A DNA stretch of 35,499 nucleotides from Cyanophora paradoxa CCMP329 (lineage: Eukaryota > Plantae > Glaucophyta): positions 1 through 35,499 of the forward strand of contig QPMI01000639.1 in NCBI GenBank assembly GCA_004431415.1, in the 5' to 3' direction. Positions 1-34,104 of the stretch are shown here, piece after piece. Made by a program: the position numbers and the translations under genes. The notes under the pieces are model-generated. The model was given only the letters and a program-made list of their open reading frames with translations. It searched no databases and was not told where the DNA came from. Numbering within the stretch: the stretch's first letter is position 1; each line of letters opens with the position of its first letter.

Positions 1-856
1 GATTGAAGATATCAGATTGCATTCCAATGAAGATAAATCGTTTTTTTGCAATTGCCACTGTAGCTGGACACAATATACTTTTTATCTCTCCTTTGGCTTT
101 CATAACATACCAGTTATTCGATTCATGGGAACCATTGCAGCATGGGCAATTAGTCCCTTATTAGCAGCATCAAAGTTAAAGCCAAGTTCAGTTTTGAGAG
201 ATTATATTGGGATGCATAAATCCCATATCCACCAGCTCTTTAAGATACTCTTTTCCAGTTCATCATGTGAGGTAGCATTAGCAGTATACTCACTCTTATA
301 GATATAGTTTCTCTGCAATCCACTTTTTAAACTCATCAGTAGGCTCATTGAAATCACAGGTATCATCCCATGGAGCATTACCCAGGTCTTGTTGACACTG
401 GGACAACACATTATTAATCCAGAAGTTCCAGTTCCAGTGATTGTTTTCAGGTCAACCTTTTCAAAGCCTTTAAAGCCTGGAGCCTTATCGGTGATTTTGA
501 GTTTAGTGAACTCCTCAGGTCGTTTAAAGTAGACATGATAGCCTTTTTTAGTTTTTGCCATGGGCTGATTGGCATCAAAGTCATCAGGAAACATATCTCG
601 GAATTTCTCAAAGTCCTCCTCATCATCAAAGTCAATAACCATCATGTTGTCTGAGAGCAGAATGCCCCAAGATACATACTGATTAGTTGCCAGCGCTTCC
701 TCATACTTTTCCCAGGACCAAGCACCTCCCTTATGCTTGAAAACTGGGTCTTTGCTGTCAGGTTTCACTGGGATAATCATGTTTTTGGCGAGTTCCTCAT
801 CAGAATCTGAGCCAGTTAGCGAGCGATTTGATTAACTTGGTCTGTTTGGCGTTCAT
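1..856 (-). CDS. Bifunctional primase-polymerase (AEP Prim-Pol) with downstream Zn-binding module; frameshifted as assembled, probably continues left of the window
   Basis: ORF 202-780 has Prim-Pol motifs IIPV..SKDP, WGILL, VIDFD and TKKGYHVYF. An upstream ATG at 856 (MNAKQTKLIKSLANWL) joins through a 1-nt shift. Alternate frames downstream give APWDDTCDFNEPTDEFKKWI and CPCCNGSHESNNWYV. Confidence 0.75.
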
Positions 857-872
857 TTTCAGCGATGGGGTC

Positions 873-911
873 CCTTTTATATATATAGAAGATTTTTCTT
901 TAAGTAGTTTT
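873..911 (-). promoter_or_regulatory. Element promoter-like motif copy A (AAAACTACTTAAAGA..TCTTCTATATATATAAAAGG) upstream of the Prim-Pol gene
   Basis: 38/39 identical to 2164-2202; lies 17 nt upstream of the ATG at 856 on the minus strand. Confidence 0.65.
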
Positions 912-1066
912 GGGTCCCCCAATCATTTTTTGTTGGAAATCGAGAAAGTATCCCTACGAAATTTATCCACATGATATATCGAGTGGTTCAGATACAAAAA
1001 GGATGAATGGTATTTCAGCGAATAAACAGCATATCCCCAGCCTAGTAATATGCTGGGAAAAATAAT

Positions 1067-1321
1067 TTAGACATGTTTCGATTTTCTCCCTCTGTTTGAG
1101 TAAGGGACATCATACAAATACTTGACAAAGCAGACTGCATTGGCTGCATACTTTCGCTGACATGAACTTGCTATTTTCATGGCTCTATAGGTATCATCGG
1201 TTTGATATAGATCTCTTAGCTGTGTGGCTATTTTTTCGTTAAACTTTTTGATTTGAGCCTTACCTTTTTCAGTTTGCTGGTACCTCTTCATAGCTCTCTT
1301 CTGGGCTTCACTGAGTGGCAT
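1067..1321 (-). CDS. Small basic hypothetical element protein (84 aa)
   Basis: Intact ORF with an A-rich start context, preceded by a variant of the shared upstream motif. Basic helical N-terminus MPLSEAQKRAMKRYQQTEKGK. Confidence 0.65.
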   Translation of the reverse strand: MPLSEAQKRAMKRYQQTEKGKAQIKKFNEKIATQLRDLYQTDDTYRAMKIASSCQRKYAANAVCFVKYLYDVPYSNRGRKSKHV

Positions 1322-1340
1322 TTTTCCTCTGTCTCTCTTA

Positions 1341-1370
1341 ATATATATAGAGAATTCTTTAAATCATTTT
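1341..1370 (-). promoter_or_regulatory. Element promoter-like motif copy B (AAAATGATTTAAAGAATTCTCTATATATAT)
   Basis: Shares the TTAAAGA and CTATATATAT blocks with copies A and C; 20 nt upstream of the ATG at 1321. Confidence 0.55.
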
Positions 1371-1377
1371 TTGTTCT

Positions 1378-2160
1378 TTAACCTCTCTGTCCAAATCTCT
1401 CAATATACATAAGTTTGAAATGCTTACCTAGCAATGCTACAAATGGTTCGATTTCCAAGGTCTCCCATGTTTTCTTGTCCTTATTCCATCTGCAATCTAA
1501 TCCTTTTGCGATATCTTTTTTAAGAAAAGGCACCTGAAACCCAGCAACCAATGTGTTTGTTGTACTGAGTTCTGCATACATTTCAATCAATGCAGATCTA
1601 CCCTCTCTGAACCTCTCTATATCATCTCTGCGAAGATTATCCATTTTGGAATAAACTGGTTGCACCAAATCAGGAAAAGATTAACTGCATGTTATTCCTT
1701 GCTCTTTCTTGTTCTAATTCTCTCTGCCTTCGCTCTCTTTCTTCTAATTCAAGTGTTCTTTCGCTCCTCTGCTTCTTTCTGATTTGCTTTTTTCTTTCCA
1801 ATTCTCTCCTTTATGATAATCTGCACTTATTACAGAAATTATCCTTTCGGTTTTTATGCGATCTCCACATCTTCATATATCTTCCCTCTGCACCCTTTGG
1901 CATAAATCGTAATGCAGCAATTCCCAACAATGACCACAATCTTTTTATTAACATGCAGATATAGCATTGTCTCTAATATGATGCATGCAAGCACATGCTC
2001 AGACTCTGGAGGCAGGTCGTAGTCAAATCATACTTTGCAAGCTTTGCCAAAGAGTTCATATATTTGCTTCTCCAAAGCAACAAATCTTTGAAGTTATCAG
2101 ATCCACAAAGCAACATTAATGTAGCCTTCAAGCGTTCCAGGAAGATTTCTTCTCTGCCAT
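1378..2160 (-). CDS. Cys-rich Zn-finger / coiled-coil protein with C-terminal DUF5710-like domain; frameshifted as assembled
   Basis: The C-terminal ORF 1378-1668 has FQVPFLKKDIAKGLDCRWNKDKKTW, matching the VPF.EKD.AK..G.RWD...K.W pattern. Upstream frames give CACMHHIRDN, IVGNCCI, HKNRKDNFCNKCR and an E/R/K-rich stretch. The ATG at 2160 follows motif copy C. Confidence 0.6.
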
Positions 2161-2163
2161 TGT

Positions 2164-2202
2164 CCTTTTATATATATAGAAGATATTTCTTTAAGTAGTT
2201 TT
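2164..2202 (-). promoter_or_regulatory. Element promoter-like motif copy C
   Basis: 38/39 identical to 873-911; immediately upstream of the ATG at 2160. Confidence 0.65.
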
Positions 2203-2272
2203 CATCAAATTTTTGCGTTCAGGAATATCCCCATTTAAAACCTCCCCTTTTAGTAGGAACAAGTTAGGAACT

Positions 2273-5200
2273 ATGCCCCGAATTAGCAACAGACTTATTA
2301 GAGAAAAAATGGGAACTCATGGGATTACTGGGAACACTGTATGCAGCCCATGAAATTACAGAGGCTGAATATGACCGGGAAATCGGATTTATTTCAAGGG
2401 GCAGACCCACTTTAGCAAAATTAACCAGAAAAGCCAATAACCTCTATGACAAAGTTGAGACTCTTGATGAACTCGATCGCCTGAGGCAAATAGAACCAGA
2501 GGCAGAAGATGGAACAGCATGAATGAATTATATCGCTGGCTCACTTACAGAGCCAGAAGGGAAGTTGTTGATGTGATTGAATATTTAGATAGAATTGCAA
2601 CCTCTCTACCAAAACGTTTAAGAGACAGTCTAGATCAATTCAGGGCAATCAAAGTTCGCTTGTCGTTTATCTGCAAGTTCGTAAAAGTCAGCAATCCACA
2701 GGTTTGGATATCGAAATACATTTACAGCGATTATTTTGTATTAACCAATCGAGAAATATTCGAACTGAGCTGAATAAAGCAGCCCAAATGTGTCAGGAGC
2801 AGATGAATGTGTTGATAGCTATCGATTGGAGAGAATCGAAATGCTAAGAGTTGCTATTATGAGTTATGCCCCAACTGGTGGCTGCTATGTTAAAACACCA
2901 GAATCAATTGCAGCTAAGAAAGCCACAGTGAATATTCGAAATATTGATGATTCTTGCTTCGAAAATGCCATTTGGCATGGATCCATAGGAAAGATGTAAA
3001 TTCCACAGAGAAGTGAGCTTACACAATATCGCAAATGGAAATACTCACCAACCACATACAATCCTTTGGCTCTCAATTTCGACAATATCCCATTCCCTGT
3101 TCCTTGTGATGCTGAAATCATTGATAAATTCGAAGCTCAAAATGCAGGCATTAGCATAAACATCTTTGGAATGGATGGAGATGTTATATATCCACTGCAT
3201 CAATCCAGCAACCCAGGCAGAAAGCAAAAAGATTAATCTCATGCTCATTCATGATGATGAAGGGAATGGTCACTATATTACAATCATGTCCCTTTCAAGA
3301 CTTCTCAGAGTTGCCCTTGATAAAACCAAGGATCAAAAGTTACACTACTGTGATACATGCTTATCTCGATTCAGGTCTGAGGCTAAACTCACTGCTCATG
3401 TGGACTCAAACAGATGCATTGATTGGAGACTCTCAAAGGGAATCACCCCTAAACCTGAGACCACCATAGAGTTTGGACTGAAAAACCTCAGGAAAACTGT
3501 GTGGCTTCCTGTTGTGGTTTACTGCAAGATTGAACATAGAAGCATCCCCATTGATGCATCGAAATCCAAAAGGGAAGTCTCAGCAGTCAACCTGAGAGTA
3601 GTCACTGGGGAAGATGTTCAAGATTTTTCGATTTGAGGGCAGGATCCAATGGGAGGTCTCTTTGAATGCTTGGAGTCCAAAGCTAGAGAACTAATCGATT
3701 TCCTGTTCACCAATATTCCAATGAATGAACTCACAGATGAGCAAAAGGCTATTTACAGGGCTACTAAACACTGTTACCTTTGCAGTGAGAGGTTCACTAA
3801 GGAAAACTTCAAATGCAGAGATCATGATCACCACACAGGTAATTACATTGCACCTGCATGCAGAAACTGCAATCTCCATAGGAGAATCTCAAAGCAAACC
3901 AAAGTTGCAGTTGTTGTTGACCAAATGGATGACTGTGGGACATTCATTTTCAGAAAAATAGCAGGCATGGGTGATAAAAAGCGAATCGAAATCCTTTCGA
4001 AAAACTTTGATCAATACCTGTCATTGCAATGGGTCTTTACAAGTTCATTGATGCAAGCAATTTCATGGATTTTGGAGCTGCTGATGTAGATGAGTTAATG
4101 AACAAATTCCAGGCTTTTAGAAGGCTTTCACACTCAGTATATGGATTGGACCCAGTTCATTATGTATCTGCACCTGGGTTATCTTGGGATGCTATGCTTA
4201 GGACCACCAAGGCAAAAATAGAGCTTATAAGTGATGTAGAGCAATACGAATTTGTTGAGAGGGAATCAGGGGTGGCTTTGCAACAATGCCTTGTAGGTAT
4301 GCTGAGGCTGATGGTGAAAACTCCCACATTATGCTGTTTGATGCTAACAACTTGTATGGCTACTGTTTGAGTCAGCCAATCCCAGTTGGTGATTTTAGAT
4401 GGGAGACCGAATTCAACCCACAAGATAACAGATCCAGTTTCCTGAAGTTGATCTGGATTACCCAATTAGGCTATATCTAGACCACAGTGATTTCCCCCTA
4501 ATTATTAACAGAAAATAGTAGAATATGCCGAATTATCACAATATCAAAAGAGCCTATTAGATCTTTCAGGAGAAGAGCTTGATAAGACCCTAAGCTAACT
4601 GCAACCTTTGGTTCTGTGACCAACTATGTGATTTCTGAGCCTCTTCTACAGTATCTGTTGGACAAAGGTGTGAAATTAAAGAAAGTTCACAGGGTCCTAT
4701 CATTTACTGTGGCTCCTGTCATGAAACCCTATATTGAGCTGAACACTGAGATGAGAAGGAAAGCAGTGAATAAATTCGAGGCTGATTTCTATAAGCTCAT
4801 GAATAACTCAATCTATGGGAAATGCATTGAATCTTGCAGAGGTAGATCTGTGGTTAAGATTGCAAACAGTGAGAAACTGTTTATGAAATATGCAGCCTCT
4901 CCATTGGTGAAATCAACAAGCCCCATAAACGAAAGAGCAGTTGCCTTTGAGTTTTACACAAAACATGTGAAGCTAGATAAGCCAGTTGCCATTGGAGCCT
5001 ATGTTTTGGATGCAGCCAAACTGCATAATTACCAGTTCTTCTATGATACTGTAAGGTCCCAATGGTCCAAAGCCAAATTACTGTTCCATGATACTGATTC
5101 CTTTTGTCTATATATCGAATCTAAGACCTTACAAAAAGATATAGAGAATATATCTTATGCCTTGGACCTAGGGGATCTAACAGAATGACCCAGGTAAATA

Positions 5201-5500
5201 CAAAAATGAGATGCCAGGTTCTGCTATATTGGAGTATGTGGGTCTCAGAGCCAAAGTTTACAGTTTCAGAACTGCTGAGATTGAGAGGAGTAAGCTCTCT
5301 GGGACTTCAACTGAGGAACTCCAATTTAATGATTTAAGCAGTGTTTATTTGCAGGTATCAGCAAGACTGTGACTGCAAAGCAGAAAAGAAGGGCAGATCA
5401 CACAATAATAGACACTGTGAGTAGAAGGGTTGCCCTAAACTGCTTTGATGCAAAGAGATACATCTTACCAGATGGTATTAATTCTGTTCCTTTTAATTAA
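2273..5500 (+). CDS. Protein-primed family B DNA polymerase (Maverick/Polinton type) with endonuclease VII-like Zn domain; multiple frameshifts as assembled
   Basis: Consecutive fragments in order: YVKTPESIAAKKATVNIRNIDDSCF, LNFDNIPFP, INLMLI..GHY, CDTCLSRF, CYLC...RDHDHHTGNYIAPACRNCNL, YGLDPVHYVSAPGLSWDAML, motif A FDANNLYG, motif B FYKLMNNSIYGK, motif C HDTDSF, GKYKNE, GLRAKVY, FDAKRYILPDGINSVPF, then TAA at 5498-5500. Confidence 0.9.
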
Positions 5501-5503
5501 GAG

Positions 5504-6888
5504 ATGCCAGCAACTGGAAGAATAGTTAGAAGAACCACTGAGCAACTGCAAGGTAACCTACTGCCCATCACAGTTCCAAAGGAGGAAAAGGGGGAATCTC
5601 GAATTGTCAAAAAATCAGAGATGAAAGAGCTTGTCCCAGTAGAGATCCCAGTTGCTATTGCAGTGAAAGAAACTAGCAAGATTGCCAAGAGATTCTATGA
5701 TGTGAGGACTGGTTACAAAGGGCTTCAAGCTATGAGAGCTGAGTTACCAGATGAATCCTATAAGCAGTTGCAAGAGTTCTATAAAAAACAAGAAGTTGTT
5801 CAGATCAATGCACCTGCTATATCTAGGAAGAGAGATCCATGGTCCCAATTAGGCAACCCCTTGATACCTATGTGATTGATTTGCTCTTTTTCCCAGCTTA
5901 TAAGAAACAAAACAATGGCTATGATACATTTATGACTGCAATGGAATCAACACTGAGAACTGGGTATATTATACCTATAAGAGATAAATCAGCTCTCACT
6001 ACATTGGCTGCATTTAAACAGCTTGAGATGAGAGTGGCAAGACCAATAGTAAAGGTTCAATCAGATGCTGGGAGTGAATTCCAAAATCGAATATTCCAGG
6101 AGTATTTATCTAGTAAATTCATAGAACACCAAGTGAGTGGAACTGCTGACCATAGAAGCCAAGGTCGAATTGAAGCCTTTAACAAGCAGATTAAGAGACT
6201 GATCACAAACTACTGCATAGCTAATAACACAGCTAGATTCTTTGATGTGTTAGGTGATATTGAGTATAATTACAATAATACAGTTCACTCAGCTACTAAG
6301 ATGAAGCCAGGTGAAACTACAGAGGAGCATTACAGGTATATAGTGGGATTAGAAGATGAGAGATTCAAGAAATCAATAGCTTATCTTGATACCATGCAGC
6401 CTGGCATGTTTGTTAGAGTGAAAGTTGAGAAGAACCCCTTTGCTAAACAGGGTAACAATTGGTCTAGGATGGTTTACACAGTTGATAGTAGGGAAGGCTT
6501 TAAGTTTAAGCTAAGGAGTCCCACTGGTGAGATCATAGATAACAGGTTTGCATTCCATGAGCTGTTGCCTGTGAATGCAGTTGAATATCTAGAAACCCCT
6601 ACAGTGGATGCCTTAGAGCAAGCTAAAGAGGAAGCTAGGGTTGATGCTGCTATAAGGAGAGAAGGCATAGAAGCTGCTAATGAAGTCCCAGATAAGCCTT
6701 TGATAGAGGCTAGGAAGGAGAAGGCTGGGAAAGTTAATAGGGAACTCAAAAAGCTCACCATAGCAGGCACACAGAAACTTTCAGAAGTGAATAGCCAGAG
6801 ATGGTATAGTGACTTTCAGACTACTAAGGAGTCATATACAGCCCCTAAACCTCAAAGAACACTAAGAGAGAGGACCAAAACTAGCTAG
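5504..6888 (+). CDS. Retroviral-like (rve) DDE integrase of Polinton type; one frameshift near 5838
   Basis: ORFs 5504-5875 and 5839-6888. Catalytic triad VIDLL / QSDAGSEF / IEAFNKQIK, then YNNTVHSATKMKP and the SH3-like GMFVRV...NWSRMVYTV. Starts 3 nt after the pol stop. Confidence 0.9.
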
Positions 6889-7365
6889 TTTGCTAGCCGA
6901 AAACTCGTTTTTTCCAAATATATGTATGACTGATATACATATATGCATATGATATACACATTGTCTTGTAGATCTTTTCAAGCGCTTCACAGCGATATGC
7001 AGAACGTTGCGATTTGATAATCTGGTGATGAGATACAAGCGTTTGAAGATGCCGATTATCGATTTTTCGAGATTTCGGAATGATGCATCATAATGATGTA
7101 ATAATGATGTATCATAAACACATAACATATATTATCGCCGTGATCGTCATGATCTCCCGAGTTCGATGGTGTGTCATATATATCATATACATATGCATCG
7201 TCATTATGACATCATTTCGTAACATAACACGTCCGTCATCGTCTTTTTTCCGCAGCGAACAGATAAGTGAACAGTTAACGAGACAACTATTGTAATAGTG
7301 TACTGCAACAACAATTGAAAACAAGATATGCGGGAAGCTATTGAAAGACAATGAAGCAAATTGCG

Positions 7366-7464
7366 AACAATTAAGTGAACAGTTAAGTGGACACCTGTTG
7401 GGAGTAGGCAGTGTCTACTCGTTTATCGTGAAACGGTGTCCACTTAACTGTTCATTTAACTGTT
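7366..7464. repeat. ~30-bp imperfect inverted repeat built from AACAGTTAAGTG-like iterons, with an inner GAGTAG/CTACTC hairpin
   Basis: TTAAGTGAACAGTTAAGTGGACACC (7371-7395) pairs with GGTGTCCACTTAACTGTTCATTTAA (7435-7459), 1 mismatch. An extra AAGTGAACAGTTAA copy lies at about 7265-7278. Confidence 0.85.
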
Positions 7465-7899
7465 GACGAAAACCCATGCATTATGACATCATATCATTAA
7501 ACCACATACAAAACACTAAAATGCATGTATCTCTTCACCAACTCATCATGTGACAAAACCAAAAACAGATTCGGAATCCTCTTAACGAGGCCTGCCTGAC
7601 GATGTAAGTATCATAGGCTCAATAATTCATATGTTTATAAGCATCTCCCCAAGATTCCCCCTATTATATAATATTTATATTAAAGTGGACTCTAGGTTGA
7701 CTCATATTAATCGTAAAAGTAGTAATAGTATATGGATTTTGTTACGAATTCAATGCAAGGGTTGACTAAGTGGGTTGAGTTGACTCAAATTTCACAGGAA
7801 ATAACAATGAATCAGAGTATAAAATGCATTTTTTGAATCAACTACACCAACTAACACTGAGATTTTCACAATATATGAGATCCTTACTGAATATGGTAT

Positions 7900-7990
7900 G
7901 TGTCACAGGTGTCACAGGTTTATCCCAGCTCAAGCCCTATAAAGAGTGATTTTCCCTTTCGATGGGATGGACCTGTGACACCTGTGACAC
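7900..7990. repeat. Perfect 20-bp inverted repeat, each arm a tandem of the 9-mer GTGTCACAG
   Basis: GTGTCACAGGTGTCACAGGT (7900-7919) and ACCTGTGACACCTGTGACAC (7971-7990). Pairing extends imperfectly inward (ATCCCA/TGGGAT) and outward (TGAATAT/ATATTCA). Confidence 0.9.
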
Positions 7991-8241
7991 CCAATATTCA
8001 TTAAATTCCTAAGGGTCCCCCTTAGACTCAATAAAACAATGATAAAAACATATAAGTTTCATGTATAATTACGATTGAATTCAATAAGAGATCGATTTGT
8101 TTTATTTAACAAATGAATCTTTTATGGATCTTAATCGAGTTTAGCGATATGTTTCCGATTAAATGAATTAAATTTAATTAAATTTAATCGAGAAAGTACA
8201 TGAATATAATATCGATTAAATCAATTAACTTTTAGACCAAT

Positions 8242-8524
8242 CACACATAGTAAAATGCGGAGTTTAACCAGAGCAAGATCTAATTGAGATTCAGTTATAT
8301 TATTCGGAAATATATACAGATTATCGATAGACTCAGTAAGACTAATCGGAAAATAAGAGAAATTTACGATAAAATATCGAAAAGAATACAAAATAATCGA
8401 AATAAATGAATATTCGATAAGATATACACAGATTATCGATTGATTGAAATAGAATATACGAGATATATCAACAAAATCAATTAAGATAAGCCGAGGGTTA
8501 AAACTCCGCATTTTACTATGTGTG
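8242..8524. repeat. 283-bp terminal cassette bounded by perfect 24-bp inverted repeats
   Basis: CACACATAGTAAAATGCGGAGTTT (8242-8265) is the exact reverse complement of 8501-8524. The outer arm coincides with the AT/GC boundary. No target-site duplication around the cassette (CCAAT vs CCGGG). Confidence 0.9.
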
Positions 8525-8576
8525 CCGGGGCCCTCGCGAACGCCCCCGTCGCCGTTGCTAGCGCCGTTGCGTGCAG

Positions 8577-9656
8577 GCCGCAGAAGTGCTGGCGATCGCG
8601 GACTGCGACGGGAACACGCCGCTCCACTACGCCGCCCGCGCGGGGGCCTCCGATCGCGAGGCCAGTACAGTGGCTCATGCTCGTGATCACTGGCCGAGCC
8701 TGCGCTCTTTTCGCGCTCTTATTATGAGGCGTCACAGGTCGTCGCGTGCATGCTGCGCGCCGGAGCGCCTGCAGGCACGGCGCGGGACGCGGCGGGGCGC
8801 ACGGCGGCCGAGGTTTCCCCGCCTACTGTCCGCGCTTTCATCGAGCGTGCGTGTCTGCCCATGGCCGGTGTATGCGCGGCGTGGGGGCACTGGATGCTCT
8901 GGCCCGCGCGCAGGGTTCGTGGAGACGGGAAGATGGAGCGGCACGTGGGCCGCCTGGACGAGCTGCCGGCGCCGGCCGCGCACAGCTGCGAGGAGCCGGG
9001 GCCCGAGGAGCCGGCGATCGAGGCGGGGGCCGGGGCCGGGGCGGCGGAGGCGAGCGACGCCGAGGACGACCTCCGACCCGCAAAGCGGCCCAGGGTCCGC
9101 CTCGAGCTTCTTCCTCGCGATCGCTGCGTATTCATCGCTTGTTCCGTTCGAGCTGACGGCGGCACATGCACAGCAGCGGGAAGAGGCGACCGAGGAGGGC
9201 GAGGCGGGGGCGCGGCGGCGCTCGGGGCGGGCGTCAAGGGCGCGGGGGATGAGCTTCGCGGAAGAGGCGTCCGAGGCGGGCGAGTCGGCGGCGGCGGCGG
9301 AGGAGGAGGAGGAGGAGGAGGATGAGCCGGACGCGGGGCCGGCGCCAGCAGGGCGCTCGTCGGGGGAGGAGGAGAGGGCGGAAGAGGAGGAGGCGGTGCG
9401 GGGCGCGCGTCGCGCGCGGCGGCGGGCGACCGGCGGACGGGCAACGGCCCCGCGGCCGGCGAAGGCGAAGGCGAAGCGGGGTCGCGGCCAGATGCAGAGC
9501 GGCGGCGACGAGCCGGCGGGCACGAGCTCGAGCTCGAGCTCGCAGCCACGGCCACGCTCCTCGGACCCCGAGCTCGAGGGCGCGGAGACAGTGGCCGCGG
9601 TGACGGCGCCCCGGCGCTCCGCGCGCCGGCGCTTCAACAGCAGCGGCGGAAAGTGA
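8577..9656 (+). CDS. 3' exons of a host ankyrin-repeat protein with an acidic/low-complexity tail; 5' part not in the window
   Basis: Acceptor TGCAG at 8572-8576. Exon 8577-8660 reads AAEVLAIADCDGNTPLHYAARAGASDRE, followed by a GC-AG intron 8661-8737 and exon 8738-8812 VVACMLRAGAPAGTARDAAGRTAAE (ankyrin consensus). Later exon boundaries are uncertain; TGA at 9654-9656. Confidence 0.6.
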   Translation, partial: AAEVLAIADCDGNTPLHYAARAGASDREASTVAHARDHWPSLRSFRALIMRRHRSSRACCAPERLQARRGTRRGARRPRFPRLLSALSSSVRVCPWPVYARRGGTGCSGPRAGFVETGRWSGTWAAWTSCRRRPRTAARSRGPRSRRSRRGPGPGRRRRATPRTTSDPQSGPGSASSFFLAIAAYSSLVPFELTAAHAQQREEATEEGEAGARRRSGRASRARGMSFAEEASEAGESAAAAEEEEEEEDEPDAGPAPAGRSSGEEERAEEEEAVRGARRARRRATGGRATAPRPAKAKAKRGRGQMQSGGDEPAGTSSSSSSQPRPRSSDPELEGAETVAAVTAPRRSARRRFNSSGGK

Positions 9657-10029
9657 TCACGACGGTCGCGCCTCCTCGAATCTCAGAATCCTGCATTGGA
9701 TTCATTTCCCCATTTGCATATCACGACGCGATCGAGCTGTGTTTCTCAAACGAACAACCAGTTACACTCAAACCATGGCCACTCAAGCTTCGATATCTGG
9801 TGCCACCAGGGGCTTCCAGGTGGGGTCGGGGCCGGGCGGTCGGAGGGCAGAGAGGCCGGGGGGCGTGGGAGGTGGGGGAGAGGCCAGGGATTCCGAGCGT
9901 TTTCGCGTGATTTCGATTCAATTTTGCAGCTGGCGCGGGGGGCAAAAACATTTGGCCGCGGGTAAGGGGGGGGCGGGAGAGGGGCCGGGAACTCTAGGCC
10001 CCAGCCCGCGGCCGGCGGGAAACCGCAGC

Positions 10030-10152
10030 TCATCATGATCATGATCGATATCATTATCATGAGGTGCGAGATCATGACAGTGATCAAGATGAGCTGCAGT
10101 CGATCATCGGCTGGGGAATAACTTGTAAGGTCATGATCATCAGCTGATCATG
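10030..10152. repeat. TCATGA/TGATCA-rich low-complexity tract between convergent gene 3' ends
   Basis: Dense overlapping CATGATCATGATC words; similar words at 7080-7215, 10312-10326 and 28258-28277. Confidence 0.55.
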
Positions 10153-10420
10153 GTTCGAAATCGACCTTTCTGTGCGCAGTGACCCTCTCTCAAATTCTCA
10201 AAGACCGTTAAAGCATCAACGCATGCGCATTAGGCCTCGGGCAGCCCCTCCCCACTCGTCACGCCATTCTTTTTTAATTTCTTTGACTTCTGCCCCATGC
10301 GAGAACATCGCTCATGATCATGATCGAGCGAACCCCAAATCGCATATGCATTTTCCACAAGCGCATCCGCGCAGCAGTAACGATTCGGTTAATTTCTCGA
10401 ACCCGACATAGGCGTCGGCG

Positions 10421-11763
10421 CTATCCGAGCGAATTTGAGTTCATGCTGCTCGCGAGGAGGCCCGGCGCGGGGTCATGGTCAGCCGTGCGACGCGGGCGAG
10501 CGGGGGCGGCGGGGCCACCTGGAGAGGAGGCGGAAGAGGTGGGCCTTGATGCTCTCCGTCGCCTCGATCACCTGCCGCGGCGCGCGCCTCAGCGCGGCGC
10601 CGGTGCTGGCGCGGGGGGCGGGGGCGGCGGGGGTGGGGCCCGCCTCCGGGGGCAGCATCAGGAACATGAAGAGCGTCCTGTGGGGGGCCGGCGAGGGGCG
10701 CCCGGTCAGGACGCGGCCGGCGAGGCCCGGAGCTGCGCGAGGCGGCGGCGGGTCCGGGCGGGCGGACCGGCGGCTCTCGTCGGTGAGGGTCCCGATGATG
10801 CGCCGGAACACGAACAGGTACCTATGACGGGCCGAGCCGTGAGCAGGGAATGGCCGGGGCCGGGGGCGGGGCGGGGCGCGCTCGAGGAGGAGGAGGGCGA
10901 CGACGGCGGCGAACATGGCCGTCTGGAGGGCGAGGAAGGCCTCCAGGCGCAGCGTCGCCTCCTGCGCATGCCCCCTCCGGCGTCAAGCGCGGCGGGGCGG
11001 GGCGAGGCGGGCGGGGCTCAGGGGCGCGCCTCGACGAAGAGGTCGGCGAGGCGCTGGAGGCCCGGCTGCAGCGGGCCCTTGATCGCCCCTCCACCGCCTG
11101 CGCCGCCTCCGACCCGGGGCCACGTGCCCCTGCGCCGAGCACGAGCGTAGGCGGGGCGCAGTGCGGGGCGCGGGGCGGGGCTGCGGGGCGGGCGGACGGG
11201 GCGGGAGGCGTGGAGGACGCGTGCCTCCTCGAGGAAGCGCAGCAGCTGCGCCTGCAGGCCCTCGCCTGAGCCCCCGCCCGCCCCGGCCCCCGCCCCCTCC
11301 GACCCGAACAGCAGCCTGCCGGCGTGCAGCCATACACATCAGCCGGGGGAGCCGCCGCGGGGCGGGGCGGGGAGGGGGCCCGGACCGGTCGGCGGGGTGG
11401 TAGCGGTGGATGGCCCCGTTGAGGTGCGCCGAGCGGTTCCCGAAGAGGAGCGACCGGTGGACCCGCTCCAGCTGCGCGCCCCGCCCCGCCCCGCCCGTGA
11501 GCCGCAGGGCCGGGGGCGGGCGGGTGGCGGGACAGGGCGGACGCGGTCGATAGAGTGGCCGAGCATGGCGCGCTGCTCGGCGTAGTCCCCCGCCCCCAGC
11601 GCCAGCTGCGATGCGAGTTTCACGGGAGAAGGTCTCTGAGAGCGCCGAGCGGGCGGCGGGGGGGCCGGGCCTCGCGGGCGTGGAAGGCGACGCGGACGGG
11701 GAGGGAGCGCAGCAGCCCCGCGAAGTTCCTGCGCCCGGGGCGAGCCGCTCGGAGGCGGGGGGC

Positions 11764-11796
<33 letters not shown>

Positions 11797-14700
11797 ATGG
11801 GGCGGCGACGCACCGCTCCGTGCTGAAGGTCTCTGCGGGATCGGCGGGCAGGGGGCGCAATCAGAAGAAAGCAAGACGCGGTTCGGGGCAGGGGTGCGGC
11901 ACCGCAGGAGGTGCTCGTCTCGAAGCCGACGGCGAACCAGACGAGGAAGAGGGCCCAGAGCAGCAGGAACGCCCCCGCGTACTGCGCCCCACGCCCGCCC
12001 CTCAGCCCCGGCCTCGGCGGCGCCCGGGCCGGCAGGGCGGGGCGGGGCCGGGGCGGGCCTGGAGGGTGACGGGGTCGGCCTCGCCGAAGCGGAGGAGGCG
12101 CGCCGCGCCCGCCGCCCCAGCCGCCCCGCCCCCGCCAGCCCGCCCCGCCCCGCCCACGCCGAAGCCGGGGCCGAGGCCGCCGCGGGGGCGGGCGGGCCGG
12201 GCCCGGCGCCTGCGCCGCGGGCCGCCTCGAGGTCGGGCTTCGCGTCGCCGGCCGGGGCCGGGGCCCCCTTGAGGAGGCTCGAGCGGCGGCGGCGCCGGTC
12301 CCGGCCCTCCCGCTCGCGCTCGCCGGCCGCGTCGGCCGCCTCTGCCACCGCCGCGCGGCGCCGCGTGAGGGGGCGCGGCGCGGCCAAAGAGAAGGCCGGG
12401 GCGGGGCGGGGCGGGGCACCGAGCTCGAGGTCGTCGAAGTCGGCGAGGGAGTCCCCCCCGTCGCTGCCGCCGGCCCTCAGCCCTCGAATTCGAACGCGGC
12501 GGGGGGGCGGGTGCGCGCCTGCCGGCCTCGCTCTCGTTGGCGGCGCTCGGGTCCTGGCCCCGCCGGCCCCGCCGCGCCAGGCGCTTCGCCGACGCCCGCG
12601 GGATGTCCCGGAAGAGACCTGGGGGGGCCACGGATAAGGCGCGAAGAGGGCGAGGAGGGGCGCTTCATTTGGAGGAGAGCTCGAGGGCGGGTCGGACCGA
12701 GGGCGTGGCTCTTCTCGCGCTGCACCGTCGCCACCGTCGGCCTGAAGAAGCCTGCGGCGAGATCGAAGTCGAAGCGTCGGCGACTTGAAGCGGAGGGCGC
12801 CGGGGCGGGGACGGACCGAAGGCGAGGACGAGGAGGAGGCCCGTCACCGACGCGAACATCGCCTGCCGCGGAGGGCGCGCTCGCTCGGGCGCCGGACGAC
12901 ACACGGCCGCCGCGCGAGAGCCGCACGATGAGGAAGACGCGGATGTTGAGGAAGGACTTGTACGCGCGCTCGTCCACGAGCGCCGTCGCCGCGTTGAACG
13001 CGTCGTACAGCCGCGGCCCTGCGCGAGAGGCCAGCTCACAATCAGCCCGGCAGAGCGTCGAGGGTTCCCATTCTTGCCCCCCATTAGATTATTTAAAATT
13101 TTAGGGAGGTGCCGGGGCGGGGGGACCGTTCTCGCGGAGGAAGAAGAGCTCGCGCTGGGCGTGGCTCGCGTTGCGCAGCGCGGCCAGCGGCGCCCGCGCC
13201 ACCCGCCGCCCGTTCGAGACCAGCTGCAGCCCCGCGACCCACAGCGGCTCCACCACCTGCCGCGGCGCAAGCTCAACGATCGCGAGCAGAACAAAAAGCG
13301 GCGCCGCAGAAGACATCAGAGCGGCGCACGTCGGCGACCTCGCCCTCGTCGTTCTTGAAGATGCGGAGGCCCGTGGAGGGGCTCGAGTCCATCTCCAGCC
13401 GCGCCCCTGCGCCCCGCCCGCCCGCCGCCGCCGGCCCGCCTCGGATGCGGGTCTGGGCTCGAAGCGGAGCGCCGGGGGGCGGGCGGACCGCCGGCGTGGA
13501 CGGAGAGGTGCCGCGCCTCGAGCTCGTCCGCCGCCGCCGCCAGCGCCTCCCGCGCCCTGCCGCTCCCTCGACTCGCGCCGCTCCGGGCGGGGCCGGGCGG
13601 GGCGCACCGTCCCTCGAGGGTGCCCGCGGCGTCGAAGGGGAGGACGCCGGCCAGCAGCAGGCTCTGCCCCGGCCCCCGCTCAGGGGCGGCCCCGGCGGGC
13701 TTGTCGGGGGCCTCGATCTCGGGCTCGCCTGGGCGTTGAGGGCGAGGAGGACGGCGTTCTTGCGGCGCGAGCCCGAGGCCCCCGTCTGCTTGATCCCCTG
13801 CAAGCAGCCGCCCCGAGGCCAAGTCAGTCCCCCGCCAGAGGCTCGGGGCGGGGCGGGGCGGGGCGGGGCGGGGCGGGCCTGCTCGTAGTCGCGGACGAGG
13901 TCGCCGACGACGACGAAGGCGGCGACGGCGAGCGCGAAGACGGCCACCAGCACCGCCACCACAGTCTGCCCCGGCCCCGGCCTCGGCAGGGGGCGGGGCC
14001 GGGGGGCAGGGAGGTGTGCGCACGCGCTTCATGCGGCGGATGGAGGCGTCGTGGGCGAGGGCCGTCCCCTGCAGCCGCCGCTTCACCTTCACCCACCGCC
14101 GCTCCCGCCGCCCCCGTTCCTGCTCCGAGTACCCCTCGCCCCGCTCCCCATCCTCGAGCTCCTCCCCGCCGCTCCCGCCCCCGGCCCCGGCCGGCCCCTC
14201 CCGAGCCGCCGAGGCGCGACCGGGGGCGGCGGCCTCGAGCTGGGGCGCGGGGCGGCGGGGCCCGCGGGCTGCAGGGGGTACGCGTCCAGGTCAAGGATGC
14301 GGGCGAGGGCCGCCAGCCCGGAGGCCCCCTCCCCCTCCCCCTCCCCCTCCCCCTCGTCTTTGTGCTTCGACGCGGACGGGCCGGCCTCGGCGTCGGCGTC
14401 GCCGGCGGGGGCGCCCCAGGCGGCGCGCGCCCCCGACATCGGCGCCGACATCGACATCGACGAGGAAGGCGCGACGGGGTCGATGGGGACGAAGACGGGC
14501 CCGCGGGCCGCGAGCGCGAGCGCCGGGGCGGCGCCCGTGTCCCACGAGAGGCGCGCGCGGGGCTGCGAGCTCGACCGCGAGCGCGCGCCCCGCGCCTTCC
14601 CGATCGCGAGCGCCCGCTCGAGCTCGGCCTCCGACGCCGGCTCCGAGTCCTCGGGGTCGGGGCCCAGGCTCGTCCGCGGCTCCGCATCCGCCGCCGCCGC

Positions 14701-17700
14701 CGCCGGCTCCTCGCGATCGCGATCGTGGTCGGGTGCCTCCTCCTCGCCCCCCTCGGCCCCCGCCGCCGCGGACGCGTCGCGCCGCGTCTGCGCCCGGCCC
14801 CGTGAGTGCCCCCCGAACGCGGAGTGCGCATCGGCATCGCCGCGGGCGCGGGCGCCGGCGCCGGGCACCTCGGCGAGAGAGCGGAGGCTGGCGGGCCCGC
14901 GGGCCTCGGCGGCCCAGGCGCCCGGCCGCGCGGAGGAGCGCCTGGCTCCCCCCGGGCCCTCCGCGGGGCCCATCACCGCCGCCGGCCCGTTCGACAGCGC
15001 GACCGATCGGGAGAGCCGCACGGAGCCCGTCGGGGCCGGTGCCACGGCTCCAGGGCCGGCGCCTGTTTCGCGCAGCTCAGCGCAAAGAACGGCCGGGTTA
15101 AGCTTGCGAAAGCGGAGAGCACCGCGGCCGCCGGAGGAGGCGCCGAACGAGCGCGGCGGCTGCGCGACGAAGGAGGGCAGGGCGCTCCCCGACCGCGAGC
15201 GCGGCGAGAGCCTGCGGGAGCGAGCCGCCCCCTGGTGAGCGAGCGGCGCGGGGCGAGCTCGAGCGCGACGGGGCCTGGGGGCGGGGGCGCACCCCGGGGA
15301 GTTGGAGAAGGCGGGGGAGTCGCGGCCCCCGGCCGCCTCGTACTTGGCCCTGCGGCGCCCGCCCCCGGCGTCAGGGCTCGAACACCCAGAATAATACGAG
15401 GTGCGGGGGCGGGGCTCACGAGGCGGGGCCGGGGCGGACGAGGCGGCGGGCGAAGAAGCCCAGGGCCGCCGAGGCGAGCAGCGAGGCCCGCCCGGGATGC
15501 CTGCGCGCCCCGCCGGCCTCAGCAAAATTCGGAGGAGGCGGCGGCGGGAGGGGCCGGCTGCCTGGGGCCGCTCCAGGAGAGCTGGGGGGAGCCTGCCCCG
15601 CCGAGGCCCAGCACGAGGCTGTTGCGGGAGGCGACGGAGGGGGCGTTGGGGTGCGAGCCCGGGGCCGGGCCCTCCCAGGCGCCCTCGCCCAGGGCCGGCC
15701 CCGCCGCCTCCGCCAGCCGCGCGTCCTGCCCGCCGCCGTCAGCGCACCGTGTGGGGCGCAGCGGGGGCGGGGCGGGGGCGACCTCGCAGGCGTCGGCCTG
15801 CTCGAAGAAGGACTGCGCCGCCGCCTCGTCGTTCAGCACCTGCCCCGGCACCGCACCCGGCGGGGCGCCCCAAGTTAGAGTCGAGCCCGAGATACGCGGA
15901 GGCGGGGTGCCGATCGGACCTCGGTCTGGAAGCGCCCGTAGGCCCGCAGGATGCGCGGGGCCCGGGGGTAGCGCGACAGCAGCGCCCTGCGCGGCCGCCC
16001 GCCGTCAGGCGGCGGACCCCCCGGGCGGGCGGGGCGGGGCGGGCCGGTAGTGGGCGTGGGCGCGGCGCTCGGCGGCGTCGACGCGGGCGAGGGTCGCCTC
16101 CAGCGCCCCCACGTCCACCTGCCCGCCCCGCCCCCGCGGTCGCCCTCGAGCGCCCAAGCTGGCGGGGCCGGCGGATGCGCACCTCGCCCTCGGCGGCCGC
16201 CAGCGTGCCCCAGAACTTGCGCACCGAGCGCACCGCCAGCCGGTGGTACCTGCCCCGCCGGCCCGTCAGCGCGCCGGAGGCTGGAAGGGGAGCGGGGCGG
16301 CGGGGGGCTGGGCGCGCTTCTTGGCCCCCGTGAGGTTCGACGTGTACTCGATGTGCGTGATCAGGTCCCGGCCCCCTTCCCCTGCGCGCGCCCCGGCCGC
16401 TCGAGGGCGGCGGGCGGGAGTCGGAGGGAAGCGGGAGAAGCACGGGGCGCACCGAGGTCCACGGCGTTGGCGGACTGCGCGGGAGGAGGCGGGGTGGGTG
16501 TGGGGGCACGAGACAAGCGAGGGGACGGAGGGGGGGGCGGGCGCACCTGCTGCCGCTCGAGGTCCTTCCGGTAGATGACGAACCTGCCGGCGGGTCTCGA
16601 AGACCGGCCCCGAGGCGAGCCCGGGGCGGGGGCGCGGCACCGGAGGTCAAAGCCGGGGTTGAGCTTCGCCGCCTGCCGCACCCGCGCGTGCCCTGTTCCG
16701 CCGCCGTCAGCGCGGGAGCGTCGGGCGCGAGCATGCGCGAAAAACAAAGGGCACCGAGCTCGGGGCTGCGCTTGAACGTGTAGCAGAACTGTGGGGCGCG
16801 CGTGAGGGGAGGCGGGGAAGGGGCGCGGGCGGGAGGCGGGGGGGCGGGCGGGCCTGGGCGTAGGCGAGGAGCGGGGCGGCGGAGGCGGGGAACTTTTCCA
16901 CGCCGGCCCGGTAGATCGCCTCCGCCACCTGCCCTCCCCAGGCTCAGCCGCCGCCTCCCGCGGCGTCCGGGGCGGGCGGGCACCTGCACGGCCTCCTCGT
17001 CCTCGGGCCCCGCCTCGTACACGAAGCGCGCCGCGATCTGGCCCCGCCCCGGCGCCTCAGCCCCGCTGGGCCGGGTCCAGGCGGGCCCCGCCGCCCTCGC
17101 CCAGCGGACCTCGACGTGGAGGGGCCGGCGGAGGGCGGCGACGGCGGCGGCCTCCCCCGTGCACATGCGCAGCCGGTAGCGCGCCCACGAGACCGCGCAG
17201 CCGGCGAGGAAGGCCGGCACCTGCCGGCGCGGGCTCGCGATCAGGAGGCGCTCTCCTCGAGCCGAGGGGCGCGGGCGCACGAGGCCGGCGAGAAGGGCCG
17301 CCTGGAGGGCCACCGGCGGGGCCCCCCGCATCTGCCGGCGCGGCCGCCCGCGCCTCAGCTCCGAGCTGGACGGTTGGGGGCGGGGCGGGGCGGGGCGGGG
17401 CGGGCCTGGGTGTCGAGGAAGCAGACGAAGGAGGCGTACGTGAACGCGAAGGCGAGGCCCGTCTGCAGCTGGTTGCTCCCCAGCCGGTGGTACCTGCCCC
17501 GCCCCCGGCCCCGCCTCACACGGCGCCGGTAATGCAATATGAGGGAGGGGCCGGGGGTCACGGGTAGAACTCGAGGAGGAGAAAGGCGTAGAGGGCGCCC
17601 GAGGCGACGAAAAGCACCGCGATCACCGGCCTGCCCCGCCCGGCGGTGAGCGGCGCGCCCAATTTGCAAGGGGCGGGCCGGGGCGGGGCGGCGGGGCGGG

Positions 17701-22569: not shown

Positions 22570-22602
<33 letters not shown>

Positions 22603-31861: not shown

Positions 31862-34104
31862 ATGGCGTCCCTGATGAAGCTTCCGATCGTAATTGACAAC
31901 GGGACAGGGTGCGCATCTTCCCGCGCGCCAGTTGGCGCGGGCCGAGCGTACGCGCAGGTACACGAAGATGGGCTACGCGAACAACGTGGAGCCGAATTTC
32001 GTCATACCTACGGTCATCGCGCTCGGCGACCGGCAGGGTCCGCCGGCCGCGCGCCCGCGCCGCGCGGCGTTTGAACTCCCGCCTCCGGGCAGGTGCGGCG
32101 ACGCGGCCGGGGCGCATACCCGACCTGGACTTCGAGATTGGCGACGAGGCGCTCTCGTACAGCCGCCGGGTGGAGCAGAGCACGCTGAGCTACCCGGTGC
32201 GGGGCGGCCTCATCGAGAACTGGGACCACATGGAGAAGTTCTGGGCGCGGAGCATCTTCCACTACCTCAAGTGCGAACCGGAGGACCACAACTTCCTCCT
32301 CGTGCGCCCCGCCCGCCCCGCCCCGCCGCGGCGCCGCGCGGCCCGAGCCGCCGCGGCCGGCGCGCAGACGGAGGCGCCGATGAACCCGCCGGAGAGCCGG
32401 GAGCAGATGGCGGAGATCATGTTCGAGACTTTCAACGTCAACGGGCTCTACATCGCCGTCCAGGCGCGCCCGCAGCTAGCCGCCCCGCCGCCCCGCCCCC
32501 GCCGCGGCGGCCGCGGGGCGCGAGGCGAGGCGGGCGGGGCAGGCGGTGCTGGCGCTGTACGCAGGGATGACGGCGAAGCGGAGCCCCGGGGGCGTCGACG
32601 CGCTCACGGGCACCGTCGTCGACTCGGGCGACGGGGTCACCCACGTCATCCCCATCGCGCGCCCCGCCCCGCCCCGCCCCGCCCCGCGCGCTGCCCCGGC
32701 CGCCCGCCCGCTGATCCGGCGGGGCGCAGGACCGTGGCTACGTGATCAGCACGTGCATACGCAGCGTGCCGATCGCGGGGCGCGACATCACGAACTTCAC
32801 CATGCAGCTCATGCGCGACCGCGAGACCGCGTGCGCCCCCGCCCGCGCGCCCCGCCCCGCCCCGCCCCCTTTACAACCCGCGCTCCTCCCTCCGCGCAGC
32901 ATACCCCCCGAGGAGGCCCTCGATATCGCGCGCCGAGTCAAGGCGCGCAGGGCGGGCCGCCGTACCCCCCGTCGCGCTGATCCCCCCCCTTCCCCGCAGG
33001 AGACGTACGGGTACGTGGCGACGGACCTCGCGGAGGAGTTCCGCAAGTTTGACAGGCGCGGAGTCGCCGGCTCGGGTCCCCCCGGCGCCCGTTTGCTCAC
33101 CCGCCGGCGCAGGGACGCCAACCTCTTCAAGCGCTTCTCGGGGCGCGTCGCGCGCACAAACCAGGCGCGCCGCCCGCCCCCGAAAGCGCCCCTCGCGGGA
33201 CCCGAACCCGCGCGCGCAGCCGTGGCAGTGCGACGTGGGGTACGAGCAGTTCCTGGCCCCCGAGATTTTCTTCAGCCCCGAGATCTCCCCCGGCGACTAC
33301 ACACAACCCCTCCCCAAGGTGACCCCCCTGCCGCCCCCCCTCTCGGCGCCCTGCCCCTGCCGCCGCGTACCCCGCCCGAGGCCGCCGTACCCCCCGCAGA
33401 TCATCGACGAGGTGATCCAGTCGTGCCCCATCGATTGCAGGCGCGGCCTCTACCGCGTACGTACCCCTACCCGTCTGGAGGTGTAACTCTTCCCGCTCAT
33501 CGCGGGGTACGGTAGAACGTCGTCCTGTCCGGGGGCTCCTGCATGTTCAAGGGCTTCCGCCGCCGCGCGGAGAAGAACATCCAGGCGCGCATACCCCTTC
33601 CCTAAGCTTGGCTGCTGTACCCGCCTGACGCGACGCCCTCTGAAGGCCTTCTGTGACGAGCGCTTCGAGCTGAACCAGAAGGCACGCCGTGTACCCCCTT
33701 CCGCGTCCTCCCGCGAAAATTTGACCCCGCTCTTTCGCCGCAGTTCATCCGCGAGCGCGTCGGGGCCGCGCACCAGTCCCACGACGACGGCCTGGTCCGC
33801 GTACCCCCATCCTGCACGCGCACCCCCCGCTGACTCCCTCCTCCCTCCTGCCAGACCTCTGGCCCGCTGGAGGTCAAAGTGATCGCGCCGCCCCTCGCGA
33901 ACCTCTCGTACTCGGTCTGGTACGGCGGCTCCTACCTCGCGACCCTCGTGCGCCCGTACCTCCTCGGGTTCCCGCGTACCCCCGTGAGCCCGGCGCCCCT
34001 GCTGCGCGCAGCCGGGGATGGCGCAGATGTGGCACTCGAAGGAGCAGTACATGGAGTACGGGCCCTCCATCTGCCGCCACAACAAGCTCCTCGAGTCCGG
34101 CTGA
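31862..34104 (+). CDS. ARP3: Actin-related protein 3 (Arp2/3 complex), 16 exons
   Basis: Spliced protein: [173 protein letters not shown] at 34102-34104. All 15 short introns keep frame. Confidence 0.93.

What the first reader, a model, noticed from the sequence alone, without database searches (positions are those of the whole stretch)
3001..6888. Near-total CpG erasure with a strict CGAW exemption
Manual count: only 19 CG dinucleotides in 3001-6888, and only 3 in the 1385-bp integrase, all TCGAAT (about 5600, 6088, 6166). All 19 read CGAA or CGAT on at least one strand; 13 are TCGA. The terminal 8040-8500 region is also rich in TCGA, while adjacent host DNA is saturated with CpG. Arg is mostly AGA/AGG, so the loss happened while the genes stayed coding. 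Inference: footprint of a host cytosine methylation or mutation defence (or a CpG-sensing restriction) that skips CGAW, for example through flanking preference or blocking by adjacent adenine methylation. The rule is looser in 1-3000.
Basis: partly seen in the sequence, partly recalled or inferred. Interest (0 to 1): 0.75.

Follow-up and report, generated by a model that had tools for sequence, protein, structure and literature searches.

The report
Algal viral element's patterned CpG loss
A multi-copy, virus-like mobile element in a GC-rich alga, likely Cyanophora paradoxa, has lost almost every CG step from its polymerase and integrase genes except those inside A/T-rich TCGA-type words, which likely marks a blind spot of the host's DNA-methylation defence that existing methylation data could test.

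Summary
3001-6888 has 19 CG against 157 expected, and 19 of 19 read CGAW on one strand. The stretch is the pPolB and rve-integrase core of a multi-copy Polinton-like element that ends near 8524; the host is very likely Cyanophora paradoxa. The pattern is not an assembly artefact, survives two codon-shuffle nulls, recurs in other copies (4 of 4 extra CGs) and, more weakly, in both element flanks. It is absent from host DNA and from 25 distant relatives.

The exemption is graded, not strict: CG survival is 0/386 without an AW flank, 6/167 with one, 5/36 in TCGA with one W and 8/30 in WTCGAW. It shows no strand bias and falls 5' to 3' along the genes, then recovers after the stop codon.

Best reading (0.5): footprint of host CpG methylation whose enzyme likely neglects A-tract-flanked TCGA sites. 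Mutation versus selection is unresolved and no methylation was measured. Adenine-methyl blocking is not supported. The element also avoids GYRC and CTNNAG, which keeps a giant-virus restriction reading alive. Earlier scan notes report CpG loss in other DNA; none of those returned shows this context rule.

The parts
1..8524 (.). Right-hand part of a Polinton-like element (38% GC); its left part lies outside the window
   Evidence: GC jumps from about 0.38 to above 0.7 at 8525. Summed contig depth falls from about 45,900 (8480-8543) to 109-170 beyond 8544. Multi-copy status was tested for 2600-8780 only, not for 1-2600.
2681..6900 (.). Core zone of CG erasure: 28 CG, all CGAW; no CG at all in 6168-6897
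2820..5500 (+). Protein-primed family B DNA polymerase with an Endonuclease_7-like insert, frame-broken in this copy; its start is probably near 2500 (inferred)
   Evidence: PF03175 E 6e-4 (below curated cut-off) and PF02945 E 3e-5; 95 homologues, best E 4e-36; tblastn tiles 2820-5497 across several frames
5504..6888 (+). rve-type integrase in two frames in this copy; only 3 CG, all in-frame CGA Arg codons before Ile
   Evidence: PF00665 E 1.5e-4, below curated cut-off; P0001 is 68% and 78% identical over the two parts
202..831 (-). Primase-polymerase-domain ORF
   Evidence: PF09250 E 5e-6; open frame 831-205
1378..1680 (-). Small ORF with a DUF5710-like stretch
   Evidence: PF18974 E 5e-5, below curated cut-off
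873..911 (.). 39-nt TATATATA-containing repeat, second copy at 2164-2202; promoter-like (inferred). Non-CGAW CGs cluster near these and near the polymerase 5' end
   Evidence: family D5, 97% identical; positions of non-CGAW CGs
6889..8030 (.). Non-coding end with palindromic blocks (7366-7464, 7900-7990); CG not depleted overall but same ranking of contexts
   Evidence: o/e 0.98 in 6889-8000; CGAW 22/79 vs other 14/131, P 0.002; inverted repeats I1, I2
8031..8524 (.). AT-rich terminal block rich in ATCGAT-like words, with a perfect 24-bp inverted repeat (8242-8265 / 8501-8524)
   Evidence: CG o/e 2.36, TCGA 8-fold over base composition; I3
31862..34100 (+). Host Arp3 gene with 15 introns; used as host marker and as CG control
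   Evidence: exon 100% identical to P0099; exact spliced alignment; CG o/e 1.16

Best explanation
The polymerase and integrase genes of this multi-copy Polinton-like element have lost every CG except those flanked by A then A/T, and this is likely the footprint of the host alga's CpG methyltransferase, which would methylate most CGs but neglect those in TCGA-type, A-tract-flanked words. Shown: CG survival rises stepwise from 0% (no AW flank) to 4%, 14% and 27% (WTCGAW), shows no strand bias, and falls along the polymerase-integrase unit from 30% to 4% before returning to 33% after the stop codon. Inferred: integrated, transcribed copies are methylated in the gene body, increasingly towards the 3' end, while 5' ends and termini are spared. 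Methyl-C would deaminate to T and be fixed in the element lineage, possibly because its own polymerase copies displaced single strands outside host repair, and selection against silencing of the two transposition genes would add to the loss. The enzyme would read both flanks of the pair, since the TCGA count equals the product of the two one-sided effects.
For: Graded classes 0/386, 6/167, 5/36, 8/30. TCGA 26 observed vs 26.9 from independent one-sided effects. Codon nulls fail: free shuffle gives 76.9 CG (minimum 57 in 5000) vs 17 observed, P 5e-6 for 17 of 17 CGAW; with the CG count fixed, 0 of 1950 samples reach zero non-CGAW sites, mean 5.5. Silent C before G: 10/77 in CGAW contexts vs 0/113 elsewhere, P 8e-5. 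TG/CA o/e 1.28; CAG/CTG 1.75. One-sided survivors 6/182 vs 5/124 in plus-strand genes and 12/93 vs 9/65 in minus-strand genes. Gradient Spearman -0.58, P 0.004; CGAW-class survival 11/37, 10/71, 6/78, 3/84, then 17/51. Other copies: 4 of 40 listed variants create a CG and all 4 are CGAW. C. paradoxa has DNMT1 and DNMT3, 32% mCG, methylated repeats, and methylation rising towards the end of expressed gene bodies (PMC12344493 section 6). 6mA-marked 5' ends exclude 5mC in other algae. CpG methyltransferases show flank preferences of about 100-fold (DNMT1) to over 400-fold (M.SssI).
Against: No methylation data by context were seen; the supplement of PMC12344493 gave legends only. Host DNA shows no such footprint: odds ratio 0.61 in 8525-24400 and 1.29 (P 0.31) in 26001-28300, so an element-specific step must be assumed. 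PMC12695648 section 9 says 5mC does not substantially shape base composition across protists. No CG-to-TG/CA change among 22 variants in 6880-8524, which holds 55 CG (low power). The mutation-versus-selection test fell between both predictions. The mammalian blind spots read do not match: DNMT3B favours T at -1. The element also avoids GYRC (4 vs 22.9) and CTNNAG (6 vs 19.6), which host CpG methylation does not explain, and the gradient could instead reflect module age.
Confidence: 0.5

Rival explanations
1. Methylation is flat across contexts, but a host protein that reads or cuts CG (methylated or not) ignores A-tract-flanked TCGA sites, and the element has purged recognisable CGs from its two transposition genes by selection alone.
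For: Complete absence (0/386) resembles site avoidance. Loss is deepest in the two genes needed to spread and stops at the integrase stop codon. No CG hypermutation is visible among terminal variants.
Against: Transition products exceed the pure-selection prediction in all three codon tests (0.35 vs 0.23, 0.54 vs 0.40, 0.54 vs 0.49), though none is significant alone against the control (P 0.055, 0.10, 0.49). 30 non-CGAW CGs persist elsewhere in the element. No such reader is identified.
Confidence: 0.17
2. The pattern was imposed outside the host chromosome, by methyltransferases or restriction enzymes of a co-infecting giant virus on which this Polinton-like element depends; CG (VCGB), GYRC, CTNNAG and GGCC would be the targets.
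For: GYRC 16 vs 54.5 (P 9e-10) and CTNNAG 14 vs 37.6 (P 9e-6) among 315 palindromic patterns, both confirmed in the codon null (0 of 1950) and deepest in the same core zone. 5 of 25 relatives avoid GATC, GTAC, TCGA, AGCT, CATG or TGCA. Giant viruses carry restriction-modification systems (PMC7253447 passages).
Against: A two-base core with graded flanks is unlike type II sites. CG is at or above expectation in the element end. The gradient along the genes fits a published host pattern. No helper virus is identified. PMC7253447 found no role for methylation in the mimivirus-virophage systems it tested.
Confidence: 0.15
3. Methylation is uniform, but T:G mismatch repair (or resistance to deamination) is efficient only in A-tract-flanked TCGA words, so only these CGs persist.
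For: Fits the symmetric, graded, shape-like flank effect reaching +3/+4 as well as the best explanation does.
Against: No repair enzyme of this specificity is identified, and host DNA keeps all CG contexts.
Confidence: 0.08
4. The intronless viral genes avoid sequences that resemble host splice signals, whose donor is GYRCG followed by a base other than A.
For: 12 of 15 Arp3 donors start GYRC and 14 of 15 have CG at +4/+5, never preceded by T or followed by A, the same VCGB class that is erased. Loss is deepest in coding DNA.
Against: Only 12 of 305 VCGB-class sites have a donor-like GY upstream, yet all 305 lack CG. Host exons hold 17 GYVCGB in 1203 nt. GCAC/GTGC is also missing from the non-coding end (0 vs 5.9). 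It may explain GYRC alone.
Confidence: 0.04
5. N6-methyladenine next to the CG (ApT by AMT1, or a TCGA-type enzyme) blocks cytosine methylation.
For: Many survivors have an ApT within 3 nt (23/178 vs 4/78, P 0.08).
Against: CGAAA 11/49, CGAAT 12/42, CGAT 15/143. AMT1-type 6mA is lowest in WATW and sits at 5' ends, while the rule is strictest far downstream. One-sided non-TCGA sites also survive.
Confidence: 0.03
6. Assembly artefact (methylated C called as T) or a codon and composition effect.
For: This copy carries several single-base frame breaks that contigs of other runs lack.
Against: T>C plus A>G places (37, 49) balance C>T plus G>A places (42, 45) in runs X1 and X3, and only 2 of 17 listed T>C/A>G variants make a CG. 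Codon nulls are rejected.
Confidence: 0.01

Closest known systems
TpCpG hypermutation of transposons in Pucciniomycotina fungi (Horns et al. 2012, PMC3318451; abstract and outline seen)
   Same: Context-specific CpG loss in repeated mobile DNA, attributed to a host genome defence.
   Different: There TCG is the target; here TCG/CGA is the spared context. There it was measured from substitutions among copies; here mostly from composition.
Flanking-sequence preference of CpG methyltransferases: DNMT1 (PMC7381644), DNMT3A/3B (PMC2936528), M.SssI (PMC11879396); passages seen
   Same: Positions -2 to +2 change methylation by 30- to over 400-fold, and coldspot motifs are enriched in human promoter CpG islands.
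   Different: None of the coldspots in the passages read is WTCGAW, and the compositional effects reported there are far milder than 0 of 386.
Context-dependent CG methylation in Amoebidium appalachense (PMC11244446, passages seen)
   Same: A protist with flank-dependent mCG (CGC/GCG about 70%, others about 20%) that methylates integrated adintoviruses.
   Different: In recent repeats it methylates all CG contexts; no CpG-loss footprint is reported in the passages read.
Polinton/Maverick and adinto-like MELD viruses (PMC8502044, passages seen; it mentions related proteins in C. paradoxa contigs)
   Same: pPolB plus rve integrase in an AT-rich, multi-copy integrated element.
   Different: Capsid, ATPase and protease genes are not in the window; 0 of 25 distant relatives share the signature.
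Restriction-site avoidance against giant-virus restriction-modification systems (systems described in PMC7253447, passages seen)
   Same: Palindrome depletion is seen in 5 of 25 relatives, and here for GYRC and CTNNAG.
   Different: The CG rule is a graded dinucleotide context, position-dependent along genes, not a fixed 4-6 bp site.

Membership tests
Polinton/Maverick-type element | Protein-primed family B DNA polymerase | tested here: met
Polinton/Maverick-type element | Retroviral-type (rve) integrase | tested here: met
   PF00665 E 1.5e-4, below curated cut-off; homologues P0002 and P0003 carry PF00665
Polinton/Maverick-type element | Terminal inverted repeats and target-site duplication | not testable with these tools
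   Only one end is in the window and no genome is held; local palindromes only
Polinton/Maverick-type element | Capsid proteins, packaging ATPase, protease | tested here: inconclusive
   None among the 10 element ORFs and frames scanned against Pfam outside pol and int; the left part lies outside the window
5mC-deamination CpG decay | CpG deficit with TpG/CpA excess and normal GpC | tested here: met
   CG 0.12, TG/CA 1.28, GC 1.09
5mC-deamination CpG decay | Excess CG-to-TG/CA changes among copies | tested here: inconclusive
   0 of 22 variants in the element end; in the core 1 of 40 listed variants removes a window CG and 2 transitions create one, with 182 rows not shown
5mC-deamination CpG decay | The sites are methylated, less so at CGAW | not testable with these tools
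RIP-like TpCpG hypermutation (Pucciniomycotina) | TCG is the preferred target | tested here: not met
   TCG/CGA is the spared context
RIP-like TpCpG hypermutation (Pucciniomycotina) | Directional C-to-T excess among repeat copies | tested here: not met
   Change classes are balanced in X1 and X3; unpolarised, shares of 10% or more only
Solo-WCGW methylation loss (definition recalled) | All W-CG-W contexts behave alike | tested here: not met
   TCGA 20/81, ACGT 0/31, TCGT 0/31, ACGA 2/59
Restriction-site avoidance | A fixed palindromic word depleted element-wide | tested here: inconclusive
   Met for GYRC and CTNNAG; not for CG, which is at or above expectation in 6889-8524

The most novel reading that the evidence does not exclude
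The element has recoded its polymerase and integrase genes by selection so that its only CpGs sit in a blind spot (WTCGAW) of the glaucophyte methyltransferase: sequence-level camouflage that lets integrated copies stay transcribed and reach high copy number. It would also expose a flanking specificity of an early-branching archaeplastid DNMT unlike those of the mammalian enzymes read.
Probability: 0.25. Interest if true: 0.72.

Novelty: new variant of a known kind. Interest (0 to 1): 0.48.

Why it matters
If true, the element's sequence is a long-term record of the specificity of an uncharacterised glaucophyte DNA methyltransferase, and it gives a sharp prediction (low mCG at WTCGAW, intermediate at one-sided CGAW, high at VCGB) that published C. 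paradoxa methylomes can test at once. It would show that self-replicating elements lose CpG where host genes do not. Context signatures might also help assign Polinton-like viruses to hosts or helper viruses, since relatives carry different signatures. If the methylome is flat, the pattern points to an unknown CG reader, repair bias or viral enzyme.

Tried and rejected
No whole genome is held, so other repeat families of the host could not be scored; this is the largest gap. No close relative with DNA was found: viral-contig scans with the integrase, P0001, the prim-pol ORF and a terminal 19-mer were empty, and the metagenome scan gave one distant locus. No RNA holder is listed on record; X15 and X19 are guessed RNA and were not used as evidence of expression.

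The purine/pyrimidine-conservation test of mutation versus selection fell between both predictions. AT-richness alone was rejected: non-CGAW sites with at least 5 of 6 A/T flank bases keep 0/39 CG against 22/101 for CGAW sites. L014 is also CG-poor (o/e 0.15) with 6 of 7 CGAW around its polymerase, but its whole-locus odds ratio is 1.36, P 0.39, so it is not counted as a second case. GGCC depletion (1 vs 10.1; 19 of 1950 null samples) does not survive correction for 315 patterns.

Two of the 19 CGs (3030, 3629) lie where the frame is uncertain and were left out of the codon tests. The script stopped before the host regions; these were done.

Ten paper searches listed no paper describing this pattern. 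Most hits were seen as listings only and subscription journals are not covered. The mutation-spectrum preprint 10.64898/2026.02.02.703326 has no Cyanophora mention in its main text.
Full report
Observation. 3001-6888 holds 19 CG against 157.1 expected (o/e 0.12; GpC 1.09; TG/CA 1.28), all 19 read CGAW on one strand (chance fraction 0.325, P 5e-10) and 13 are TCGA. The integrase has three, all TCGAAT. The rule extends without exception over 2681-6900 (28 of 28) and holds more weakly in 1-2680 and 6889-8524 (odds ratio 3.4 each), so it is not a product of the chosen interval.

What the DNA is. 1-8524 is AT-rich (38% GC). It encodes a protein-primed B-family polymerase with an Endonuclease_7-like insert (tblastn 2820-5497), an rve integrase (5504-6888), and on the minus strand a prim-pol ORF and small ORFs. 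Contigs of public runs cover 2600-8524 at very high summed depth, which drops from about 45,900 to 109-170 past 8544. Single contigs in the element reach 3,100-9,000 against 109 in the flank, which suggests dozens of copies, though the tool warns that depth is no copy number. Eight of the 12 indel rows shown (27 in all) fall at the frame changes seen by tblastn, so the breaks are assembly errors or peculiar to this copy, and the family is likely coding-intact. This is a Polinton-like element; capsid genes, the other end and the target duplication could not be tested.

Host. An Arp3 exon at 32092-32301 is 100% identical to P0099, whose name follows the style used for Cyanophora paradoxa gene models (PMC6704402 passage). 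High GC and many short introns fit that species, and earlier unreviewed notes on this genome say the same. I take the host to be very likely C. paradoxa.

Not an artefact, not codons. In runs X1 and X3, T>C plus A>G places (37, 49) balance C>T plus G>A (42, 45); miscalled methyl-C would give a large excess of the former. Of 40 variants listed (182 not shown), 4 create a CG in another copy and all 4 are CGAW. One of these needs a neighbouring variant of the same contig, and one (4884) is seen only in X15. In 12 separate in-frame segments (1238 codons, 17 of the 19 CGs) the survivors are 10 codon junctions, 5 CGA and 2 TCG codons. Silent C before G occurs in 10/77 CGAW contexts and 0/113 others, against a baseline of 220/442. 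Both codon nulls are rejected.

The rule is graded. Counting CG among CG, TG and CA sites in 3001-6888: 0/386 without an AW flank, 6/167 with one, 5/36 for TCGA with one W, 8/30 for WTCGAW; about 25% is neutral at this GC (my arithmetic). TCGA equals the product of the two one-sided effects (26 vs 26.9). The flank bias reaches +3/+4, and CGAAW is spared more than CGAT. One-sided survivors show no sense-strand bias, which points to double-stranded DNA rather than mRNA. It is not general AT-richness or WCGW. Survival of the CGAW class falls along pol-int (11/37, 10/71, 6/78, 3/84) and returns to 17/51 after the stop codon. The 30 non-CGAW CGs of the element sit near gene 5' ends or in the non-coding end.

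Controls. Host DNA shows no such rule (odds ratio 0.61 and 1.29). Among 25 relatives of unknown host (L001-L025, 29-43% identical in the matched protein segment), odds ratios run from 0.32 to 1.74, against 70 for the core and 5.2 for the whole element. The signature is therefore not a property of pPolB elements in general. L001, with the same pol-then-int order, shows the reverse (TCGA 1 in 10.9 kb).

Mechanism. C. paradoxa encodes DNMT1 and DNMT3, has 32% mCG and near-background non-CpG methylation, methylates most repeats, and accumulates methylation towards the end of expressed gene bodies (PMC12344493; sections 5, 6, first part of 10, passages and supplement legends seen). In other algae 6mA marks 5' ends and excludes 5mC (PMC12695648 section 9; 10.64898/2026.10.09.758095 passages). 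CpG methyltransferases discriminate flanks up to 100- to 400-fold. The simplest reading is a host enzyme that neglects A-tract-flanked TCGA, acting on gene bodies of integrated copies, with loss by deamination and probably also selection. Every step from methylation onward is inferred.

Against this reading: host DNA keeps its CGs; none of 22 variants in the CG-rich end is a CG transition (low power); my mutation-versus-selection test fell between both predictions; and the mammalian coldspots I read differ.

A second signal. The element also avoids GYRC (16 vs 54.5) and CTNNAG (14 vs 37.6) (both 0 of 1950 in the codon null), most strongly in the same core. Five of 25 relatives avoid classic four-base palindromes. 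Host CpG methylation does not explain this, so a giant-virus enzyme remains a real rival, and the gradient could reflect how long each module has been in the element. GYRC is also the start of 12 of 15 host intron donors. Splice avoidance cannot explain the CG loss, because 293 of the 305 emptied VCGB-class sites have no donor-like GY upstream, but it may explain GYRC.

Verdict. The signature is real, strong and family-wide, and I did not find it described in ten searches. It belongs to a known kind (methylation-linked, context-dependent CpG loss in mobile DNA) with an inverted context relative to the fungal TCG case (PMC3318451, abstract seen). The mechanism is unproven but testable with existing data. 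The supplementary figures of PMC12344493, which I could not see, may bear on the context claim. Interest 0.48.

Noticed in passing
window 1-8524: GYRC (16 vs 54.5 expected) and CTNNAG (14 vs 37.6) are depleted, GGCC weakly (1 vs 10.1). GTGC never occurs on the plus strand while GCAC occurs 10 times, 7 of them followed by C.
   Followed up: partly
window 31862-34100: The host Arp3 gene has 15 introns of 49-81 nt; 7 start GC rather than GT, and 14 of 15 donors read GYNCG: an unusually high share of GC-AG introns.
   Followed up: partly
L001, L005, L012, L013, L016: Polinton-like viral contigs with strong avoidance of GATC, GTAC, TCGA, AGCT, CATG or TGCA, e.g. GATC 0 vs 20.7 in L005 and 0 vs 20.9 in L016; suggests pressure from restriction enzymes of helper viruses.
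   Followed up: no
window 6880-8524: Variants among copies in the non-coding end are mostly transversions (5 transitions of 22 in X4) against 94 of 167 in the coding core in X3 (P 0.005, different runs). Some copies replace about 285 nt between 7193 and 7505 with a few other bases.
   Followed up: no
window 7255-7464, 7900-7990, 8242-8524: A stack of palindromic blocks and a perfect 24-bp inverted repeat at the element end; possibly replication origins.
   Followed up: no
L014:3000-5900: An unrelated CG-poor relative (o/e 0.11 here) with 6 of 7 CGs in CGAW around its polymerase; not significant over the whole locus.
   Followed up: partly
window 8525-24400: TCGA is 1.7-fold over its trinucleotide expectation in host DNA (194 vs 112); a codon-pair effect or mild protection, untested.
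   Followed up: no
window 24400-28300: A lower-GC (55-64%) stretch that may be another mobile element; the five ORFs scanned had no Pfam match and CG is not depleted.
   Followed up: partly
window 29430-29700 and 30540-31090: Tandem arrays visible in the sequence: a unit of about 21 nt and one of about 72 nt.
   Followed up: no
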